A stretch of 64,000 nucleotides of DNA from an uncultured Gemmatimonadota bacterium (GTDB lineage Bacteria > JAAXHH01): NCBI GenBank assembly GCA_951812955.1, contig OX638340.1, positions 3,008,001 through 3,072,000 on the forward strand. The letters run 5' to 3'. Position numbers and translations under genes: made by a program. Positions 281-11,280 of this stretch are shown here, one piece after another; the stretch's first letter is position 1; every line of letters starts with the position of its first letter. The notes below the pieces were generated by a model. It saw nothing but the letters and a program-made list of their open reading frames with translations. It had not been told where the DNA came from and ran no database searches.

Positions 281-391
281 GGTTATCGCGGTGAGAACGC
301 GGTCCGGCGTGGTAACCATGCGCATTGGTCCGGCGCGGTAACGGCACGCATTGGTCCGGCGCGGAAACCATACGCATTGGCTCCGGCGGTC
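281..391. repeat. About 3.5 tandem copies of a 26-bp unit (ggtccggcg[t/c]gg[t/a]aac...cgcatt) in the convergent intergenic space
   Basis: Units at 301-326, 327-352 and 353-378 with a partial unit at 379-391, plus a degenerate copy at 281-300. They lie between the stop of the left-edge membrane ORF (221) and the stop of the minus-strand aminotransferase (392-394). Confidence 0.7.
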
Positions 392-4462: not shown

Positions 4463-5179
4463 TCATTGTCTTGAATGAAGTCTCTCAGGCAAGGGAAGAT
4501 TGGATTCCACCTGTACCAACCGGTCTTCTTCCAATACGTATCCACTCAGGGACCCGCCATAGACACATCCCGTGTCCAAGCCGATCACGTAAGGCGAACC
4601 GTCTCCCCGGCGTTTGGCGACAAGGCCGCCAGGCGCGTCGTGGCCGAAAATGATTAGTTTACCCGAGGGCTCATAGGCGTCATGCCATCTCGGTCCCACG
4701 ATGCCTTCCACGGGAGGCCAGGTTCGGATGACGAGAAACTCGTCCCGGGTAGTCCCTTGCAGGCCTTTTACCGGGTTGATGCCCGCGTGGACCAGGAGGA
4801 AATCGGGTTCGTCGATCCACAAGGGAAGCGATTCCAGCCAGGGGATCAGGGCTTCCGCGAAGGGTGCGAGGGCTTCCAGGGTTTGACGGTATACATGCCA
4901 TTTTACGGGCACCGGCTCTCCGGACAGGTGCCTGCGTAGCCGATCCGGCAGCCTGACATCGTGGTTGCCGAGGACCATCCTGGCATTGGTATCCTGGATC
5001 AGCTTCCACACTGCGACGGGATCCGGACCCTTGGTAAAAGCGTCGCCCGTCAGATAGAGGAGATCCGTATCCCGCTGGAATTCCAGTTTGGAGATCAGTT
5101 GTTCGAATTCACGGGCGCAGCCGTGAATGTCGCCGATGAACAGGGTACGCAAGGGAATACAGGACTCCGGAATGATCAA
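4463..5179 (-). CDS. Calcineurin-like metallophosphoesterase (ApaH / PrpE-type bis(5'-nucleosyl)-tetraphosphatase-like)
   Basis: 238 aa. Shows the GDIHG, GDAFTKG(P) and GNHD metallophosphatase motifs and a C-terminal GLDTGCVYGG motif typical of ApaH-like enzymes. Confidence 0.75.
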   Translation of the reverse strand: MIIPESCIPLRTLFIGDIHGCAREFEQLISKLEFQRDTDLLYLTGDAFTKGPDPVAVWKLIQDTNARMVLGNHDVRLPDRLRRHLSGEPVPVKWHVYRQTLEALAPFAEALIPWLESLPLWIDEPDFLLVHAGINPVKGLQGTTRDEFLVIRTWPPVEGIVGPRWHDAYEPSGKLIIFGHDAPGGLVAKRRGDGSPYVIGLDTGCVYGGSLSGYVLEEDRLVQVESNLPLPERLHSRQ

Positions 5180-5395
5180 TACACCGGTATATACGGATGG
5201 ATACGACGGCCCAAATTACGTCTACCGGAGAAAACGGAAGGCCTTAGATAATGGAAGACCGGTAATTTCGACATCCTGAATTATAACCGCGCGACTCGGG
5301 GAGGGTCAAGAGAATGAACTGCCAGGTAGGGCTCAGTTTGGAATGTTGCGACTGGCTCGTTACAGAACAACGCTCCCTATAATCGTTGAATACAG

Positions 5396-5433
5396 AAAAG
5401 CCCCGCTAACTGCAACGGGGCTTTTCCTTTTTT
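5396..5433. terminator. GC-rich palindromic hairpin with flanking T/A tracts (bidirectional intrinsic-terminator-like; repeat copy Y1)
   Basis: aaaagccccg-ctaactgcaa-cggggctttt followed by cctttttt on the + strand and preceded by ttgaatacagaaa (U-rich when read on the minus strand). It lies ~230 bp 3' of the collagen-like gene stop. Confidence 0.5.
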
Positions 5434-5664
5434 CGGGACCGATCGCCCTTTTCAGTGGCCGAAGCTCCTACTCAGGGCGAACGGGAAGGTGTAACGAAAT
5501 GACCGAGACAAATGCAGGGCGGATACTGAATCGATTGCTTGCCCTGTCGGGATAACTTCCGGGGGTCACTCGATACTTGGTCTGATGGGGTACATGAGAA
5601 GGTACCCCATCTCGCCACAGGAGTCTGTCAGCGCCCTGTCTACGGGACCCGGATTATCCCGATG

Positions 5665-7188
5665 TTAACTATCCAGCGGCGCCGTGATAGCTACCGTGAA
5701 ATGAATGCGCTTGGATACCGCACCATTTACCTTCAGTTCAACGATATAGTTCTTGGACTCTGCCCCGTCCGCGCCAATACCCACTGGGCCATTTGCTATT
5801 GGCGCACTGCTATCATTCGCGATCGGGTCTGAGTCATCGAAATTCTGCGCCGTAACCGTCACAGTAACTACACCGCCTGCTGCCGTTTCTGTGGCAACTA
5901 ACCCAACTGTTTCGGCCTTATTGCCACTGGTGACGGTGACGCCTAATGCGTTTTCATCGAAACCATCGATTCGTGCGTCAGAAATCGCATTATACAGTTC
6001 GACGGTAAACGTGGTGGAAGTGTTTCCGTCCTTCCACGCCGCCGTAGCCTGGTCTCGTTCCCACGTGAAGGTGCGAGTTTCCGGCTCGGTGTAGATTATG
6101 TCACGTGTGATGCTGGAACCGGAAACGCTGATATCGACGGAAGCCGACGAACCTTCGATAGTAGCTGAAATGGTAGCATCGCCACTGCTCTTTCCGGAGA
6201 TTGTTGCCGCGGCCCCGGCGGCCATCACAAACTTACCTGCCATTTCATGGCCTTTGGGGTGTTTATCGGCGCCAACACCAGCAGAGCCCGTATCACTAGC
6301 CCATTCGTAATTACCCATAGCACCCAAATTGGGTACCGCCTTATCGTCAGAATCAAGCGCACTGGCAGTAATCTTTGTGGTTTCACCGATGGCCAACGGG
6401 ATCAGGCTATCCTTGCTGAGCTTGACCTTGGCAACCGCATTGGAAACATTCACCGACAACTCACCGGCAACGAGATGGGTAGGTGACTTGAAGGATACCA
6501 TCGATGGACTGTACCCGTCATCTGCATCATAATTCGATGCAAGAGCAGTAATTACCCCATCTTCAACTGAAATACCCTCCTCTTCCTCGTCGATAGACCA
6601 AACCAGGTCAGCGCCTTCAATTATGCTGCCATCCTGTGTGCGGACTGCAGCTTTCACTGTAGCTTCCTGGCCTACTCTGAGAAGGATGCTCGTGCCGTCT
6701 CCAATTCTTGCCGGAGTAAGTTCTTCCAAAGCACCATACGCTTCGGACGAGTGCTCAAGCACCATAGCAGCAACATGGTCTGCTGCCAAGATACCGAGAA
6801 TCTCTTCCGGGCTTAAACCAGGAGGCAGTGTAGCTGCTTCACCTTGCGGACCCTGCTCACCTTGCGGACCTGCCGGCCCCGTGGCACCATCAGCGCCATC
6901 AGCGCCATCAGCGCCTGCCGGACCTGCCGGCCCCGTGGCACCATCAGCGCCATCAGCGCCATCAGCGCCTGCCGGACCTGCCGGACCCGTGGCACCATCA
7001 GCACCTGCCGGACCTGCCGGACCCGTGGCACCATCAGCACCTGCCGGACCAGTCGAACCCTGCGGGCCTGCCGGACCTGCCGGACCGCCCGGACCGCCCG
7101 GACCGCTCGGACCCGCGGGGCCGGTCTTACCCTCGCATCCCATCAGGGACAAACCGAAGGCCAATACAGCAATTATGAGGTAATGCAT
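5665..7188 (-). CDS. Collagen-like triple-helix-repeat surface lipoprotein with C-terminal Ig-like (Big-type) beta-sandwich domains
   Basis: 507 aa. Signal peptide with lipobox (LSLMGC), then ~33 uninterrupted G-X-Y triplets ([30 protein letters not shown]...), then ~370 aa of Ser/Thr/Val-rich Ig-like repeats. Strong RBS (GGGAGAA) lies 8 nt 5' of the ATG. Confidence 0.8.
6840..7130. repeat. Higher-order (~54-bp) tandem nucleotide repeats encoding the collagen G-X-Y tract
   Basis: Near-perfect reiteration of gcaccatcagcgccatcagcgccatcagcgcctgccggacctgccgg[c/a]cccgtg within the CDS. Confidence 0.8.
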
Positions 7189-7697
7189 TGTGTTCTCCCG
7201 TTTATGGAAACACTACTAATTAGGATTGACGAAAATTACGAAACTTGCCTATATCGCCTCCTTTCCCGCTAATGGATCGGTTGACTTAAATGCATTACAA
7301 GACTGCTAATTACAGACTCCTAGACTGGCGGATTTCAGTCCGCATTTAGATACTTTTCCCCTTAAATATGGTTAAATTGAGCCATCAGGAAGTGGTTGGC
7401 TCTCTTGTCCGGTTGATGCAAACGAGCGCCACACACGGCTGCAATCAGCCACCACACCCTGTACTGGCTGGGAGGTAGGAATCGTGTTACGTCAGGCAGG
7501 ATCAGGTGCGTCAGGTAAGGGAAAACGGGGGTGTTGAGATAGGGCGAAGTTGTTACTATCTATCATATCTACTGCCAAGGTGAATTGGCTTGAGTCTACC
7601 CTGCACGCAGCATATATTGACACGTGAGGCATATATCGACGAGGCTGTTGAGACGCAGGAGAACCGGAGATTTACCTAAGCTTTAGCGAGGTTCGAT

Positions 7698-9272
7698 TTG
7701 CGCAGAATTGGCCTATTCGGCTGGGGCATCGTAGCGCCCCGTTCGCCCAACATGGAAGCCTTTTCCCGAAACCTGGAGCAGTCGGAAAGCTGGCTTGCGC
7801 CTTTCGAAGGGTTCGGCCCCAACAACTTCCTGGTCGGGGAACCCGAATTCGACTTCCGGGACTACCGGGAATGGATCGATGCCCGATTCCCGTCGAACCG
7901 GTACCCCCGCCTGGTCGACAAGATGGACCCCACCACGCTGCATGCAGTCGGAGCCTTCATCCAGGCGTTGGAACAGAATCCGGGACTGGAAGGGGAACTC
8001 AAGGCGCTGGGAACGGCCGCCCACGTGTACATTGGTACTGGTGTGGGCAATATCCCCACGATCAGCCGGATCAGTATGGAGCTGTACCGGGCCCAGCGCG
8101 CGTGGGACCGGTTCTGGGGTTCGGCCGAACGGAATGCCCGGCTTCGCGCGTATCTCACTCGGCATGACGACGAAGACGAGGGCGAAGCCATCCCGCCCCA
8201 TCCTGAAACCACACCTTCCGCGGCGCGAGACCAGGCCGAAGAATCATGGAATGTCTACTGGACGTCCCAGTCTGAAGAGTTGAGGTCATACCTGGAGACG
8301 CTCGCCAGGATCGAGGGGATGAACGTCGAGGGGACCGTCGAATCAGGCAAGCTGAAACTCATCCGCGAAAAGCAGCGCCGCAAGCAACAACTGCAGGACG
8401 ATTGGGGCGCGCCCGAACCGCCATGGGAATGCGTCTCGGCCGACCTGATCTGGAACATCCATAACACGCCCGCGTCGCAGGTCACCATGATGGGGCAGAT
8501 TCACGGGCTGTCTCTTGCGCCCGTGGCCGCCTGCTCCACCTTCGGCGTGTGCCTTAAACTCGGCATGGACGCCATCCGGCGCGGCGAAGCGAAGGCGGTC
8601 GTCGTCGGCGCCACCGATCCGCCGCCCACGGCCCTGCTGGTGGGCGCCTTCTACCGCGCCCGTGTTTCCGCTGCAGACGGCGCCGTTTCCAAACCCCTGA
8701 CCGGGCTGCGCGGCACCCACGTCTCGGGCGGCTCCGTGCTGTGGATCATCGGGGACTACGAATACATGACGGAGAAGGGGTTCAATCCGATCGGGATGGA
8801 GCCGCTGGCCGTGGGCGTCAGTTCCGACGCCGACCATATCATCACGCCATCGAAGGAAGGACCGCAGATAGCGGTCCACCAGGCTATTGCGGATGCCCGC
8901 GTCTCCCCCGAAGACATCGCCTCGTGGGACCTGCACGCGACGGCGACGCCCGGCGATTTCCTGGAAATGGAGAACCTGCTCGAAATGGTGCCCGGCTCCG
9001 TGACGGTTACCGCGCGGAAAGGCACCTTCGGCCATGGCATGAGCGCCGGAGGAGGGTGGGAACTGACGGCGCAATACCTCGGCTACGAACGGGGCGCGCT
9101 ATATCCCACGCCCCTTTCCCAAGACGAGGTGAATCCGGAAATCGGCGGACTTCACTCCCGGTTCGTCTACGATACATCCTGCCCGCTCCCCGAAGGTATC
9201 GCCGGCAAGCTGTCCATGGGGATCGGCGGCATCAACGCCTGTGTCATTTCCCGGCCGCTTAAAGATGACTGA
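7698..9272 (+). CDS. Beta-ketoacyl synthase (thiolase-fold condensing enzyme)-like protein with a large internal insertion; stand-alone
   Basis: 524 aa. KAS-I/II-like N-terminus (RRIGLFGWGIVAPRSPNMEAF). Active-site Cys context AACSTFG. Both catalytic His contexts are present (HATATPGDFLE, GHGMSAGGGWE), as is the C-terminal GIGGINACVI. A ~110-aa insertion (residues ~130-240) is not found in FabB/FabF. TTG start with GAGGT SD. No ACP, AT or KR genes nearby. Confidence 0.65.
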   Translation: MRRIGLFGWGIVAPRSPNMEAFSRNLEQSESWLAPFEGFGPNNFLVGEPEFDFRDYREWIDARFPSNRYPRLVDKMDPTTLHAVGAFIQALEQNPGLEGELKALGTAAHVYIGTGVGNIPTISRISMELYRAQRAWDRFWGSAERNARLRAYLTRHDDEDEGEAIPPHPETTPSAARDQAEESWNVYWTSQSEELRSYLETLARIEGMNVEGTVESGKLKLIREKQRRKQQLQDDWGAPEPPWECVSADLIWNIHNTPASQVTMMGQIHGLSLAPVAACSTFGVCLKLGMDAIRRGEAKAVVVGATDPPPTALLVGAFYRARVSAADGAVSKPLTGLRGTHVSGGSVLWIIGDYEYMTEKGFNPIGMEPLAVGVSSDADHIITPSKEGPQIAVHQAIADARVSPEDIASWDLHATATPGDFLEMENLLEMVPGSVTVTARKGTFGHGMSAGGGWELTAQYLGYERGALYPTPLSQDEVNPEIGGLHSRFVYDTSCPLPEGIAGKLSMGIGGINACVISRPLKDD

Positions 9273-9554
9273 CGGACGGAAATCCCTCCTGTCTTAGCTG
9301 AGATAACAAGGGCTCCCGGTTTGTCGGACGTGGGCAGGGCTCGATTTACGGGTTTTCCACCTGGTCGATGCAACTCTTTATGCCTTTATCCACGACAAGC
9401 TGGTGGCAACGCAATGGCGCCGTCTTTACCGCGCCAATAGCCCTCTTCGCACTAATGACTTATTTGCATGTTTCCATGATTTAACACTGCCAGCCCGTTC
9501 CGGAAACTGCCTCCGGCAGATCAGACGAAGTAAGGAAACAGCAGGAATAGTATA

Positions 9555-9642
9555 GTGTTCTCCGTTTATGGGCACTAACGCTTTCCTGACCAACTGATTA
9601 ATCCTTGAATACAGAATAGCCCCGTGGTCACCACGGGGCTAT
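9555..9642. repeat. Composite repeat: second copy of the collagen-gene leader motif (X2) followed 26 bp later by a second copy of the terminator-like palindrome motif (Y2)
   Basis: X2 gtgttctccgtttatgg (9555-9571) matches 7190-7207 in 17 of 18 positions. Y2 ttaatccttgaatacagaatagccccg...cggggctat (9598-9642) matches taatcgttgaatacagaaaagccccg...cggggctttt at 5380-5425. X2 is followed by no start codon or ORF. Confidence 0.75.
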
Positions 9643-10232
9643 TCACTTTCAATATGATTATGCTGAGCATCAGGTATGAGAAAGTTTGAAAATTGAACCA
9701 ATTACCAGACAGTTTGTGATTTGATGTTGACGTTGGATCAATTACTAAATAACATGGATGTGTATTTTACGTGATCGTACTTTTGTAAGAGAATTAAAAT
9801 AAAGTATAATACGAATAATGATGAAAAAATATAAGTTTTTTCTTGACTTATTACTCAACGTAACCATATATATACGGATAAATATCACAAAAAAATCATT
9901 TTTTGTCACGATATGGTTGACTTGGCCCTGCAACCAAGCGTACCTTACAATCTAAAGATTCAACAGAAGATAATAAGGAAGCCGTCATGACGGGTTAACA
10001 TGCCCTAAATTCAACCGCGAGCACACAGTCGATCCCGTTGTAGGGGACGCAGCCCAAACCCCCGGGCAACGGTATTCGATCCTGCAGACTACGCCGTCCG
10101 AAATGCGTTAAACCGTCTCATTCATCACACAGGAACATCGAGGCAGGAGTTAGCGGCTTAATTTTCTGCCTATCTCACCCTGAAGAACACGATATATCGA
10201 TCTCGCCCATGAGAGCGTGATGAGCCTCTTGC

Positions 10233-11192
10233 GTGGAGATAGTACCGGGTACCATGCAGCTACGCATTTCCTTACAGTCTCCCCTCGACAGCAAGGCCGA
10301 TCCGTTGTCCATTGATGTCGCGCGCTTGCTGCATGCCAGCATTGCGCCGAACACGGCGAAGGCGTACGGCGATGCATTGCGCAAGTTGTTCGAGCATCTG
10401 GATGGGCAGACACTGACCGACGCTGCGCTGGCCGGTTACCTGGCGCACTTGTATGCCAAAGGACTGGCGCCGGCTTCGGTCACGGTAGTGGTACAGGCCG
10501 TCCGTTTCTGGGAAAAGCTGGAAAACCGCCCGTCCAGTGTCGAGTCGTTGACGAGTCGAACACTGGCCGGAATCCGACGCGAAGGTCGAAACCGGGGCCG
10601 CGGCCAGGTAACCGGGCTGACCCGAGAAACGGTCAATCTCATGGTTCAGAACGCCATCAATACCGACACACTGGCCGGACTGAGAGACGCCGCTCTGTTT
10701 CGTGTAATGAGCGATGCCCTGTTGCGGATTGGGGAAGCCGTCGCCATCGACTGTGAGCACATCACCACCGAGTTCGACGGGAGCGGGCGGCTGATGTTGC
10801 TTCGAAGCAAGACCGACCAGGAGGGAAAGGGTACCAGTCTCTTCCTGACCAACCGTACCGTCGACGCGATCCGGCAATTGCAGCATGGAGCGGGGTTCAC
10901 CACCGGCCCCCTCTTCCGCCGGATGGTGAAGGGCGACCGAATGTGCGACGGCCGTCTGACGGTGGACGGCGCCCGGCTGACTATCAAAGCGTCTGCGGAG
11001 CGGGTCGGTATCAAGGGCGTGAGCGGCCACAGTCTTCGCATCGGAACCGCCCAGGAACTCGCGCAGCGCGGCGCATCCCTGGTGGAATTGCAGAACGCCG
11101 GCCGATGGACCGACAGCCAGATGCCCGCGCACTACACCCGTGAGCAGGCCGCGGGCAAGGGTGCCGTCGCCCGCTTGCTGGGGATTGACTGA
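10233..11192 (+). CDS. Cre-like tyrosine site-specific recombinase (phage-integrase family)
   Basis: 319 aa. The C-terminus aligns well with P1 Cre (GHSLRIGTAQELAQRGASLVELQNAGRWTDSQMPAHYTRE...ARLLGID versus Cre GHSARVGAARDMARAGVSIPEIMQAGGWTNVNIVMNYIRN...VRLLEDGD). This includes the catalytic H-x-x-R, W and Y. The N-terminal SAM-like domain is also Cre-like (YLAHLYAKGLAPASV). GTG (10233) or ATG (10254) start. A 550-bp AT-rich tract lies upstream. Confidence 0.8.
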   Translation: MEIVPGTMQLRISLQSPLDSKADPLSIDVARLLHASIAPNTAKAYGDALRKLFEHLDGQTLTDAALAGYLAHLYAKGLAPASVTVVVQAVRFWEKLENRPSSVESLTSRTLAGIRREGRNRGRGQVTGLTRETVNLMVQNAINTDTLAGLRDAALFRVMSDALLRIGEAVAIDCEHITTEFDGSGRLMLLRSKTDQEGKGTSLFLTNRTVDAIRQLQHGAGFTTGPLFRRMVKGDRMCDGRLTVDGARLTIKASAERVGIKGVSGHSLRIGTAQELAQRGASLVELQNAGRWTDSQMPAHYTREQAAGKGAVARLLGID

Positions 11193-11200
11193 GGGGAGAC

Positions 11201-11280
11201 TGAGTCGTGAGTCTCTACGGTGAGTCGTGAGTCTCTACGGTGAGACGCGGGTCTCTACGGTGCGTCGTGGAACGCTACGG
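11201..11280. repeat. Four tandem 20-bp units (tgagtcgtgagtctctacgg x2, tgagacgcgggtctctacgg, tgcgtcgtggaacgctacgg) immediately 3' of the recombinase gene
   Basis: Direct reading. Unit 3 contains the 5-bp inverted repeat gagac-gcgg-gtctc. The repeats lie between the convergent stops of the recombinase (11192) and the thioredoxin-domain gene (11303). Confidence 0.8.

What the first reader, a model, noticed from the sequence alone, without database searches (positions are those of the whole stretch)
5665..7188. Collagen-like (G-X-Y)33 surface lipoprotein with Ig-like domains, encoded with a 54-bp higher-order DNA repeat
The protein has a lipoprotein signal peptide (LMGC), then an uninterrupted 99-residue Gly-X-Y tract rich in Pro, Ala and Asp ([30 protein letters not shown] reiterated). 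About 370 residues of Ig-like beta-sandwich repeats follow. Bacterial collagen-like proteins are typically adhesins or phage-fibre-like surface structures. The coding DNA at ~6840-7130 is a near-perfect higher-order tandem repeat, so slipped-strand or recombinational length variation (a phase- or size-variable surface protein) is plausible. The locus has lower-GC flanks and sits inside the repeat-bracketed architecture described above.
Basis: partly seen in the sequence, partly recalled or inferred. Interest (0 to 1): 0.55.

Follow-up and report, generated by a model that had tools for sequence, protein, structure and literature searches.

The report
Collagen-stalked lipoprotein of sponge-associated bacteria
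This is a real gene for a protein that probably hangs from the bacterial membrane by a lipid, stands on a rigid collagen-like stalk whose length differs between strains, and ends in three antibody-like domains. It belongs to a large, undescribed gene family found only in a little-known group of sponge- and coral-associated bacteria.

Summary
Window 5665-7188 (-) is an intact 507-aa ORF with a 17-residue hydrophobic leader ending in L-M-G-C. The Gly-X-Y run is uninterrupted: 34 triplets counting G-C-E, 33 after it. It is encoded by 54-bp (x2.6) and 36-bp (x2.6) higher-order repeats. A 389-residue C-terminus follows and models confidently (pLDDT 91) as a string of bacterial Ig-like domains.

The gene belongs to a lineage-specific multigene family. 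I counted more than 75 copies in about 20 MAGs of a sponge/coral-associated clade that includes the type genome of GTDB placeholder phylum JAAXHH01. Copies often sit in tandem arrays.

A conspecific contig carries the same gene with 40 triplets instead of 34, inside a 5.2-kb block that is otherwise 99.9% identical. Stalk-length variation is therefore supported. On/off switching by slippage is not, because all units are multiples of 9 nt. A phage origin is rejected.

Public gene calls truncate this gene to 374 aa.

In related genomes a conserved tyrosine recombinase sits beside a ~400-bp inverted-repeat-flanked segment upstream of a paralogue. That segment is inverted between close relatives. 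The window keeps only a relic of it.

Lipidation, trimerisation and surface exposure are inferred, not shown.

The parts
5665..7188 (-). Complete coding sequence, 507 aa plus stop
   Evidence: Full-length homologues at 59-76% identity. The public call for this exact sequence is truncated to 374 aa (P0121).
7135..7188 (-). Leader [17 protein letters not shown] plus Cys18. This is a lipobox-type L-M-G-C, with cleavage and lipidation predicted at Cys18.
   Evidence: Cys and Gly-1 are invariant. The -3 residue is L/M/V/I/A/F. There is no K/R in the first 7 residues.
6835..7140 (-). Uninterrupted Gly-X-Y tract, residues 17-118 (34 triplets). If triple-helical it would be about 28 nm long.
   Evidence: 66 of 67 full-length family copies have a single uninterrupted run. 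The length estimate is my inference from 0.286 nm per residue.
6865..7002 (.). 54-bp higher-order repeat x2.6, encoding [18 protein letters not shown]
   Evidence: 98% matches, score 269
6959..7050 (.). 36-bp higher-order repeat x2.6, encoding [12 protein letters not shown]. It overlaps the 54-bp array.
   Evidence: 98% matches. This is the site of the in-frame indels relative to L001.
5668..6834 (-). C-terminal region, residues 119-507: a short helix followed by about three bacterial Ig-like beta-sandwich domains
5755..5979 (-). The most variable part of the protein, residues ~404-478 in the last (membrane-distal) domain
   Evidence: Mean pairwise column identity among close orthologues is 0.31-0.49 here, against 0.7-0.89 in the first two domains. 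This is also the lowest-pLDDT stretch of the model.
7189..7261 (-). Conserved 5' leader (GGAGGCGATATAGG ... CCATAAACGGGAGAACACA), with the Shine-Dalgarno GGGAG at 7195-7199
   Evidence: Conserved across paralogues and species. No significant RNA fold (z = 0.01).
7363..7388 (-). Arm-like site (CTGATGGCTCAATTTAACCATATTTA on the gene's strand) at -175..-200. It is homologous to the right inverted-repeat arm of the invertible element upstream of the paralogue in relatives.
   Evidence: The same site occurs at -170..-204 in 33 of 71 family copies. It has no inverted partner within this intergenic region.
5388..5421 (-). GC-hairpin (GCCCCG-N10-CGGGGC) followed by TTTTCTGTATTC, about 245 nt downstream of the stop codon. 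Candidate intrinsic terminator.
   Evidence: The consensus scan did not call it, because the loop exceeds 8 nt.
7698..9272 (+). Divergently transcribed beta-ketoacyl-synthase-like gene. It is the conserved neighbour of family genes in 12 loci.
9555..9872 (-). Relic of the lost paralogue and its invertible element. Components: a 5'UTR-like CCCATAAACGGAGAACAC without an ATG (9555-9575); a hairpin (9614-9644); a proximal arm (9649-9674); and the recombinase-side arm (9847-9872), preceded by a TTGACT box (9843-9848, + strand) that reads towards the recombinase gene.
10233..11192 (+). Tyrosine recombinase. Its homologues are 312 aa, which implies a start at 10254. It is conserved at 77-96% identity beside family arrays in many related genomes.

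Best explanation
The gene encodes an exported protein with three parts: an N-terminal anchor, a stalk and a head.

Proposed mechanism. The 17-residue leader directs Sec export. Cys18 in the L-M-G-C lipobox is diacylglycerol-modified, and signal peptidase II cleaves in front of it. The mature protein therefore begins with a lipidated Cys followed directly by E-G-K-T-G-P-A-G-P. Three chains wind their 33 uninterrupted Gly-X-Y triplets into a collagen triple helix about 28 nm long. This holds about three bacterial Ig-like domains per chain away from the membrane, most probably on the cell surface. The distal domain carries the most variable loops and is the likely contact or antigenic face.

The stalk is encoded by 9-bp-based higher-order repeats. 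These gain and lose units in frame, so stalk length varies between strains without inactivating the gene.

The gene is one member of a lineage-specific multigene family of a sponge/coral-associated bacterial clade. It sits at a conserved chromosomal position next to a ketoacyl-synthase-like gene and a tyrosine recombinase.

Shown: the ORF, the tract, the repeats, the fold prediction, the family, the synteny, the strain difference and the conservation gradient.

Inferred: lipidation, trimerisation, outer-membrane or surface location, and a role as a spacer-plus-binding coat or adhesin within the collagen-rich host matrix.
For: - The ORF and tract are real. Pfam Collagen is above threshold.
- 66 of 67 full-length family copies keep one uninterrupted Gly-X-Y run of 16-56 triplets, with Pro in 47% of X positions. 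This fits a triple-helix constraint better than a floppy linker.
- The leader and the C-E-G-K-T-G-P motif are nearly invariant, while the heads are only 35-45% identical. Two relatives carry a canonical lipoprotein leader (MKTIIPLMLILLLTGC) before the same motif. Position -1 is always Gly and position -3 is hydrophobic.
- Among close orthologues the membrane-proximal domains are conserved (0.7-0.89) and the distal domain is variable (0.31-0.49).
- The conspecific contig L001 has 40 triplets against 34. It uses different (GPA)1-2(GAD)1-3GAT modules. Three in-frame indels lie within a 5.2-kb block that has only 6 substitutions outside the tract.
- The head module is confined to 49 clusters at 50% identity among 1.84 billion representative proteins.
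- The family has more than 75 copies in about 20 MAGs, including tandem arrays of 4-5.
- A 28-nm rod is about as long as, or longer than, a typical periplasm is wide. This is my inference and it favours surface display.
Against: - No signal-peptide or lipoprotein predictor was available.
- The n-region lacks any Lys or Arg in 75 of 77 copies. Met at -2 is outside the classical lipobox set.
- Nothing here shows trimerisation. No recognisable trimerisation domain was found, and only a monomer could be modelled.
- The post-Cys motif does not match the Bacteroidetes surface-export signal, so surface exposure is unproven.
- The strain comparison relies on one short-read contig (coverage ~9) through a repeat, so its exact triplet count could be wrong.
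- The sponge association is read from record and sample names, supported by two papers. It does not come from metadata for the window itself.
Confidence: 0.6

Rival explanations
1. The protein is lipid-anchored but faces the periplasm. The trimeric collagen rod then acts as an envelope spacer or tether, analogous in geometry to Braun's lipoprotein, with the Ig-like domains contacting peptidoglycan or inner-membrane partners.
For: It shares the N-terminal lipobox and rod geometry. The post-Cys motif does not match the known FCB-group surface-export signal. Some other subfamilies are paired with a small outer-membrane beta-barrel gene, which shows only an envelope association.
Against: Stalk length ranges from 16 to 56 triplets (about 14-48 nm) within single genomes, which is hard to reconcile with a fixed periplasmic width. 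There are 4-10 paralogues per genome, with a hypervariable distal domain. In relatives an invertible promoter-like element sits in front of a paralogue. These are features typical of exposed, selected surface proteins.
Confidence: 0.17
2. The N-terminal hydrophobic segment is not processed as a lipoprotein signal. It stays as an uncleaved membrane anchor, or is cut by signal peptidase I, and the protein is an inner-membrane-anchored or secreted collagen-like protein.
For: There is no positively charged n-region in 75 of 77 copies, and Met or Tyr often occupies -2. Both are atypical for signal peptidase II substrates.
Against: Cys at +1 and Gly at -1 are invariant across all homologues found by homology rather than by pattern. 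Relatives carry a textbook lipoprotein leader in front of the identical mature N-terminus.
Confidence: 0.1
3. The Gly-X-Y tract is a monomeric, extended, low-complexity linker rather than a triple helix.
For: No trimerisation domain was identified. Imino-acid content is moderate (Pro in 17 of 102 residues). Big-type domains are usually monomeric.
Against: Gly stays strictly at every third position over 16-56 triplets in 66 of 67 copies, and indels are always multiples of 9 nt. A flexible linker would not need this. Pro is enriched at X, as in proven bacterial collagens (the comparison is from general knowledge).
Confidence: 0.1
4. The gene is a prophage or phage-derived tail-fibre gene.
For: PHROG tail-fibre families hit at E down to 2e-23. 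A 'phage integrase' family gene lies 3 kb away.
Against: All PHROG hits lie within residues 15-125, the Gly-X-Y tract. The head alone has no hits. The neighbours are an ApaH-like phosphatase, a ketoacyl-synthase-like gene, DUF255, oxidoreductases and DNA ligase, in synteny conserved across 12 loci. The recombinase is a clade-wide conserved single-copy gene at 77-96% identity.
Confidence: 0.02

Closest known systems
Streptococcal collagen-like proteins Scl1/Scl2 (and Legionella Lcl)
   Same: A surface 'lollipop' design: a bacterial, hydroxyproline-free Gly-X-Y stalk whose triplet number varies between strains, carrying a globular head. NCBIfam models hit the tract.
   Different: Polarity and anchor are reversed. 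Scl has an N-terminal V-domain head and a C-terminal LPXTG wall anchor. Here the anchor is an N-terminal lipobox Cys directly abutting the tract, and the head is C-terminal and Ig-like. Scores are far below family cut-offs (56 against 325, 45 against 400, 44 against 500). It is not a member.
Bacillus anthracis BclA exosporium nap protein
   Same: A collagen-like region whose repeat number is polymorphic and sets filament length (general knowledge). The N-terminus is at the anchoring surface and the C-terminal globular domain is distal.
   Different: BclA has a C1q/TNF-like trimerising C-terminal domain and is attached through an exosporium-targeting N-terminal motif. Here the head is a string of Big-type Ig-like domains and the anchor is a lipobox.
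Leptospira LigA/LigB and other lipobox-plus-Big-domain adhesins
   Different: Lig proteins have no collagen stalk and carry 12-13 Big_2 repeats that Pfam recognises. Here there are only about three divergent domains, all below Pfam thresholds.
Mycoplasma variable surface lipoproteins (Vsa, Vlp, Vsp, Vpma families)
   Same: A multigene family of lipoproteins with a highly conserved 5' region and signal peptide. Size variation arises from in-frame tandem repeats. A tyrosine recombinase gene lies next to the locus (general knowledge for Mycoplasma; here).
   Different: The repeats here are collagen triplets forming a probable rigid rod. Every copy keeps its own conserved 5' leader and start codon. 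No expression-site shuffling or large inversion was seen in 7 loci (and locus tables).
fimS-type invertible promoter switches ('invertons')
   Same: In relatives, a ~400-bp segment bounded by imperfect inverted repeats lies between a tyrosine recombinase gene and a surface-protein gene. It is found in both orientations in closely related genomes.
   Different: This applies to the paralogue next to the recombinase, not to the gene of the finding. The window keeps only a degraded copy. Inversion within one population was not demonstrated.

Membership tests
Bacterial collagen-like proteins (Pfam PF01391 Collagen) | Uninterrupted Gly-X-Y repeats recognised above the Pfam gathering score | tested here: met
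   34 triplets. 46.7 bits against a cut-off of 27.2.
Bacterial collagen-like proteins (Pfam PF01391 Collagen) | Formation of a trimeric triple helix | not testable with these tools
   Only monomer modelling was available. Indirect support comes from strict periodicity in 66 of 67 copies.
Scl1/Scl2 (NF038330 / NF038329) and Lcl (NF046116) | Whole-protein score above the curated cut-off; LPXTG anchor and V domain (Scl) | tested here: not met
   45, 56 and 44 bits against cut-offs of 400, 325 and 500, with matches confined to the tract. The sequence has no LPXTG.
Bacterial lipoproteins (signal peptidase II substrates; PROSITE PS51257-type rule) | Lipobox with Cys at position 15-35, small residue at -1, hydrophobic residue at -3 | tested here: met
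   L-M-G-C with Cys18. Gly-1 and Cys are invariant in the family.
Bacterial lipoproteins (signal peptidase II substrates; PROSITE PS51257-type rule) | At least one Lys or Arg in the first seven residues | tested here: not met
   MHYLIIA has none. The same holds in 75 of 77 family copies.
Bacterial lipoproteins (signal peptidase II substrates; PROSITE PS51257-type rule) | Actual lipidation and cleavage | not testable with these tools
   Needs biochemistry. No SignalP or LipoP was available.
Bacterial Ig-like domains (Big_1 PF02369 / Big_2 PF02368) | Sequence match above the Pfam gathering score | tested here: not met
   Big_1 scores 14.9-15 bits against 34.9. A few homologues carry precomputed PF02369 or PF02368 hits.
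Bacterial Ig-like domains (Big_1 PF02369 / Big_2 PF02368) | Ig-like beta-sandwich fold | tested here: met
Phage tail fibres with collagen-like segments | Homology outside the Gly-X-Y tract and a virion-gene neighbourhood | tested here: not met
   The head has no PHROG hit. The neighbours are housekeeping genes.
Bacteroidetes surface lipoproteins with a lipoprotein export signal | C-X-K-(D/E)2 or S-D-D-D-D immediately after the lipidated Cys (PMC5080379) | tested here: not met
   The mature N-terminus is C-E-G-K-T-G-P, with one acidic residue and net charge zero.
Type IX secretion substrates | C-terminal sorting domain (Por_Secre_tail / TIGR04183) | tested here: not met
   No such hit at E <= 1 in Pfam or NCBIfam.
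Slipped-strand phase-variable (on/off) genes | A repeat unit not divisible by three, or a homopolymer in the coding sequence or promoter | tested here: not met
   Units are 9, 36 and 54 nt. Observed indels are -9, +27 and +36. There is no homopolymer of 6 or more between 5665 and 7700.
Inverton-controlled genes (fimS-type) | An inverted-repeat pair flanking a promoter-bearing segment upstream of the gene | tested here: not met
   There is no inverted-repeat pair in 7189-7697 or in the orthologous intergenic regions, only a single arm-like site. The feature is met for the recombinase-adjacent paralogue in L005, L049, L022, L139 and L157.

The most novel reading that the evidence does not exclude
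The family could be a recombinase-driven, phase- and antigenically variable coat of collagen-stalked lipoproteins in an uncultured sponge-symbiont phylum.

One TTGACT-bearing invertible segment sits next to a conserved tyrosine recombinase. Every array member, including this gene at 7363-7388, keeps an arm-like site about 190 nt upstream. The recombinase might therefore redirect the promoter element to different paralogues.

In the window the adjacent paralogue is lost. There the recombinase-side arm (9847-9872) is more similar to the arm of the finding's gene (77%; both share the derived ATGGTTA) than to its own degraded partner (62%). Inversion of the 2.46-kb segment between them would place the TTGACT box in front of the collagen gene.

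The collagen coat could also mimic or bind the host's collagenous mesohyl.
Probability: 0.12. Interest if true: 0.8.

Novelty: new variant of a known kind. Interest (0 to 1): 0.55.

Why it matters
Bacterial collagen-like surface proteins are known mostly from Gram-positive pathogens and spores. In those, the stalk is wall- or exosporium-anchored.

Here the triple-helix-forming tract starts one residue after a lipidated Cys. It has expanded into a family of 4-10 paralogues per genome in a clade of sponge- and coral-associated bacteria that has no cultured member.

If the model is right, these bacteria wear a coat of lipid-anchored rods of adjustable length, with variable Ig-like tips, inside a host whose matrix is collagen. 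That offers a concrete, testable candidate for symbiont-host recognition, adhesion or evasion of phagocytosis.

There is also a practical point. Standard gene callers truncate or split these genes, including the public call for this very sequence. Surveys of 'eukaryote-like' proteins in sponge symbionts will therefore have missed the family. I found no paper describing it.

Tried and rejected
- Phage or prophage origin: rejected.
- Frame error: rejected, because homologues share the frame.
- 'Collagen-less' homologues (P0001, P0006, P0011-P0018): these are gene-caller artefacts, at least for P0001/P0121. The DNA of L001 encodes an intact 525-aa protein. An alternative-frame 94-aa ORF was called over the tract. 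A full-length member exists in the P0006 cluster.
- A second copy in the window: none found.
- Metagenome-contig scan with the whole protein: swamped by generic collagen hits, with no close relative among the 80 kept. This scan was wasted.
- Looking up the window protein and P0121 by exact sequence: not on record.
- A structured RNA in the conserved 5' leader: no support (z = 0.01). Rfam finds only tRNAs in the window.
- Bacteroidetes lipoprotein export signal and T9SS C-terminal domain: not matched.
- Sequence-level relatives of the head in the PDB: none.
- The 26-nt 'bracketing' direct repeat as a mobile-element boundary: rejected. It is part of two similar hairpins.
- Both orientations of the invertible segment within one species: not found. 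All contigs of P0178, P0194 and P0192 agree with each other. The P0163 contigs show only orientation B or stop short.
- Large inversions involving several paralogues: none in 7 loci.
- Sigma-70 consensus scan: the TTGACT-N16-CATATT site in L022 is the only hit in that region, but one hit is expected by chance. The window's copy is not called.
Full report
**1. The observation**

Window 5665..7188 (- strand) is an open frame of 507 codons. It starts at the first start codon after an in-frame stop and is preceded by GGGAG six bases upstream. The product begins [27 protein letters not shown].

From Gly17 to Ala118, Gly recurs at every third position without interruption. That is 34 triplets counting G-C-E and 33 after it, encoded by DNA 6835-7140. 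Pfam Collagen is above its gathering score, at 46.7 against 27.2 bits.

Tandem Repeats Finder reports a 54-bp unit x2.6 (6865-7002, 98% matches). Both are built from 9-bp subunits. The protein modules are (GPA)1-2(GAD)1-3GAT.

No other such tract or paralogue exists in the 64-kb window.

**2. The C-terminal region**

No Pfam, NCBIfam, PHROG or PDB-sequence search recognises residues 119-507 significantly. Big_1 reaches 15 bits against a cut-off of 34.9.

- Big_2-CBM56, FdeC, invasin and intimin

'Ig-like beta-sandwich repeats' is therefore supported by fold only. My reading of the strand pattern is about three domains.

**3. Genomic context**

The neighbours are:
- an ApaH-like metallophosphoesterase (4463-5179, -)
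- a divergent ketoacyl-synthase-like gene (7698-9272, +)
- a tyrosine recombinase (10233-11192, +)
- a DUF255/thioredoxin protein, oxidoreductases and DNA ligase
- rpoB/rpoC-sized ORFs and a tRNA cluster further on

Nothing phage-like is present. PHROG 'tail fibre' hits cover only residues 15-125, and the head alone gives none. The phage-fibre idea is rejected.

**4. A lineage-specific multigene family**

A protein search returned full-length relatives at 59-76% identity and more distant ones at 30-45%. All begin with the nearly identical leader and with [10 protein letters not shown].

A scan of one genome per GTDB species for GCEGKTGP gave 57 loci in about 20 MAGs. Submitters labelled these Gemmatimonadota, Candidatus Latescibacterota or just 'bacterium'. 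One of them is JAAXHH01, the assembly that gives its name to the GTDB placeholder phylum JAAXHH01. That phylum has 27 genomes from marine, sponge-tissue and other sources (PMC11382960).

Several sample and bin names belong to published sponge MAG sets: APA_bin (Aplysina aerophoba), SB066x and ENGE20 (Ircinia ramosa), ROBB21 and IrcVar. That the window's organism is such a symbiont is an inference from these relatives.

Re-translating the loci gave 77 copies. Of these, 67 are full-length, at 430-581 aa with 16-56 triplets (median 28). 66 of the 67 have a single uninterrupted Gly-X-Y run. Pro occupies 47% of X positions.

Many copies lie in tandem arrays, for example five in 13 kb in L009. Genomes hold roughly 4-10 copies.

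A profile of the head alone finds only 49 clusters at 50% identity among 1.84 billion representative proteins. Essentially all the strong hits have this architecture.

I found no paper describing the family.

**5. The anchor**

Cys18 and Gly17 are invariant, and position -3 is L/M/V/I/A/F. Two relatives have a canonical lipoprotein leader (MKTIIPLMLILLLTGC) in front of the same EGKTGPAGP. This supports reading Cys18 as the lipidated residue.

Against a textbook call, 75 of 77 copies have no Lys or Arg in the n-region, and Met or Tyr is common at -2. The post-Cys motif does not fit the Bacteroidetes surface-export signal C-X-K-(D/E)2 or SDDDD (PMC5080379). No predictor and no experiment was available. 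Lipidation is likely and surface exposure is an inference.

**6. Variation of the stalk**

Contig L001 (ENA ERZ15614337) is syntenic with the window. Over window 5103-10324 the two differ by only six substitutions outside the tract (99.9% identity). The flanks are 87-96% identical.

Inside that block the collagen tract carries three in-frame indels (-9, +27, +36 nt) and several substitutions. This gives 40 triplets instead of 34, with different module types: (GAD)2 modules in place of (GAD)1 and (GAD)3.

The head differs by two residues in 389.

One caveat applies. L001 is a short-read contig at about 9x coverage, so its exact count could be wrong. However, junctions that do not exist in the window cannot easily be produced by misassembly.

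The window itself probably derives from a 3.81-Mb contig. P0121 is its exact C-terminal 374 residues.

All units are multiples of 9 nt and no homopolymer of 6 or more is present. Slippage or recombination therefore changes length, not reading frame. Size variation is supported and on/off variation by this route is not.

**7. Conservation gradient**

Among close orthologues, mean pairwise column identity is 0.7-0.89 in the first two domains. It falls to 0.31-0.49 in residues ~404-478 of the last domain, where indels and the lowest pLDDT also lie. The most variable part is thus the part farthest from the anchor.

**8. Most likely mechanism**

Sec export is followed by lipidation and cleavage at Cys18. 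Three chains then form a triple helix about 28 nm long (99 residues x 0.286 nm; inference). This projects three Ig-like domains per chain.

The range of 16-56 triplets within genomes corresponds to about 14-48 nm. Together with the multiplicity of paralogues and the variable tip, this argues for an exposed coat or adhesin rather than a periplasmic spacer. That rival cannot be excluded (confidence about 0.17).

**9. Comparison with known systems**

The protein works like Scl1/Scl2, Lcl or BclA, with a collagen stalk of variable length carrying a head. It is not a member of those families. Scores are far below their cut-offs, there is no LPXTG, V domain or C1q-like head, and the polarity is reversed relative to Scl.

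It resembles Leptospira Lig proteins in combining a lipobox with Big-type domains. It resembles Mycoplasma variable lipoproteins in having a conserved 5' region, in-frame repeat size variation and a neighbouring recombinase.

An N-terminal lipobox Cys that directly abuts a collagen tract, expanded into a family, appears to be undescribed. I rate it a new variant of a known kind.

**10. Peculiarities of the gene and its annotation**

Third-position GC is 0.50, the lowest of 32 long ORFs in the window (median 0.75). This holds across the family: 0.56 against 0.78 in neighbouring ORFs, lower in 48 of 50 loci, Mann-Whitney p = 2e-28. In the tract, GC is concentrated in codon positions 1 and 2 (0.91 and 0.84, against 0.46 at position 3).

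This probably explains why gene callers pick a wrong frame over the tract and truncate the gene. The cause of the low GC3 is unexplained. Conserved synteny in 12 loci argues against recent transfer.

**11. The 'repeat-bracketed architecture' and an invertible element in relatives**

In family-sense orientation the ancestral order is: recombinase(-), about 900 nt, paralogue A(+), ketoacyl-synthase-like(-), paralogue B(+). The finding's gene is paralogue B.

*The lost paralogue.* In the window, paralogue A is gone. What remains is:
- a 5'UTR-like CCCATAAACGGAGAACAC without an ATG (9555-9575)
- a hairpin (9614-9644) similar to the one downstream of the finding's gene (5400-5421); these two hairpins contain the 26-nt direct repeat
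- two arm sequences

*The invertible segment.* In relatives, 18-26-nt imperfect inverted repeats flank a 300-400-bp segment between the recombinase and paralogue A. A TTGACT box lies just inside one arm and reads outward.
- The box points to the recombinase in L005, L049, L008, L018, L021, L139-L143 and L157.
- It points to paralogue A in L022 and in the P0163 species.
- The two 'towards-the-gene' lineages fall in different clades of the recombinase tree. Each lies next to a close relative in the other orientation, at 95% and 93% identity.
- Direct comparison of L139 with L022 shows collinear flanks and a 425-nt reversed match bounded by the arms.

This is the signature of an inverton. Both orientations within one population were not observed. 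No large inversions were seen.

*Relevance to the finding's gene.* The same arm-like site sits 170-204 nt upstream of 33 of 71 family copies. This includes the finding's gene, at 7363-7388. That gene has no inverted partner in its own intergenic region.

**12. Verdict**

The finding is a real and correctly read gene.

The added value here is threefold: the family and its host-associated lineage, the direct strain-level evidence for stalk-length change, and the mis-annotation. A candidate recombinase-controlled switch in the same locus of related genomes is a further lead.

Interest is 0.55. The most novel reading, a recombinase-driven variable coat that also governs this gene, has a probability of about 0.12.

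Noticed in passing
L005 5436-5826; L049 5487-5822; L022 5424-5831; L139 (upstream of 3001); L157 (upstream of 886); window relic 9555-9872: A candidate inverton lies between the conserved tyrosine recombinase and the adjacent family paralogue. Imperfect inverted repeats of 18-26 nt flank 300-400 bp, and a TTGACT box just inside one arm reads outward. The segment is inverted between closely related genomes: L139 against L022 shows collinear flanks and a 425-nt reversed match. It occurs in the gene-facing orientation in two separate clades. The window keeps a degraded copy with the paralogue deleted.
   Followed up: partly
window 7363-7388 and 9847-9872: The arm-like site upstream of the finding's gene and the recombinase-side arm are in inverted orientation, 2.46 kb apart, with the ketoacyl-synthase-like gene between them. 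They are 77% alike and share a derived ATGGTTA not seen in other genomes. The proximal partner arm (9649-9674) is only 62% alike. Whether this larger segment can invert is untested.
   Followed up: no
window 5103-10324 against L001: A 5.2-kb block holds the collagen gene, the ketoacyl-synthase-like gene, the relic and the first 90 nt of the recombinase gene. Outside the collagen tract it is 99.9% identical between the window and the conspecific contig L001, while the DNA on both sides is only 87-96% identical. This looks like a recent recombinational exchange or sweep of this block.
   Followed up: partly
window 5665-7188; family loci L002-L058: The gene has the lowest third-position GC of all long ORFs in the window (0.50 against a median of 0.75). 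The same holds family-wide (0.56 against 0.78; 48 of 50 loci), despite conserved synteny. The cause is unknown.
   Followed up: partly
window 5665-7188; L001 9693-11125: Public gene calls truncate this gene. P0121, the exact C-terminal 374 aa, starts at Leu134 read as Met. In L001 the calls split the gene into a bogus alternative-frame 94-aa ORF over the tract plus a 374-aa remainder. Many 'collagen-less' homologues in the databases are probably the same artefact.
   Followed up: yes
L006 5384-5890, L010, L011, L042, L043, L046, L050, L051, L056, L058; also L016, L020, L026, L036: Other subfamilies (leaders MHYFIVVLIAFALSMYGC and MHYLIIAMLAFAVSMMGC) are consistently paired with a ~160-aa gene. 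It has a signal peptide and a C-terminal Phe, and it hits OMP_b-brl weakly (E = 3e-4). It looks like a small outer-membrane beta-barrel partner. No such gene is present in the window.
   Followed up: partly
window 7698-9272 and 12 related loci: A divergent beta-ketoacyl-synthase-like gene of 524 aa, far below all NCBIfam cut-offs and with a ~250-aa N-terminal region unlike FabF, is embedded between family genes in 12 loci. A functional link to the lipoproteins is unknown.
   Followed up: partly
window 7189-7261 and family loci: The 5' leader and the first ~80 nt of the coding sequence are conserved at the nucleotide level across paralogues and species (ATGCATTACCTCATA is nearly invariant, and the first 81 nt are up to 96% identical). 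The heads, by contrast, are only 35-45% identical at the protein level. The leader has no significant predicted RNA structure (z = 0.01).
   Followed up: partly
L144-L148 (P0163 species); L151-L153: Five independent contigs carrying the same recombinase all end 350-620 nt upstream of it, in or just before the invertible segment. Three contigs of another species end inside the collagen tract of the adjacent family gene. Both features seem to break short-read assemblies.
   Followed up: no
window 11181-11280: Four tandem copies of a 20-bp unit (TGAGTCGTGAGTCTCTACGG) lie between the 3' ends of the recombinase gene and the DUF255 gene.
   Followed up: no
window 301-378: Three tandem copies of a 26-bp unit (GGTCCGGCGTGGTAACCATGCGCATT) lie at or near the 3' end of the class-III aminotransferase ORF (392-1777, -) and inside an overlapping + strand ORF.
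   Followed up: no
window 9640-10230: This is a very AT-rich (36-42% GC) intergenic stretch upstream of the recombinase gene in a ~61% GC genome. It has several sigma-70-like matches (5 found against 1.6 expected) and contains the relic of the invertible element.
   Followed up: partly
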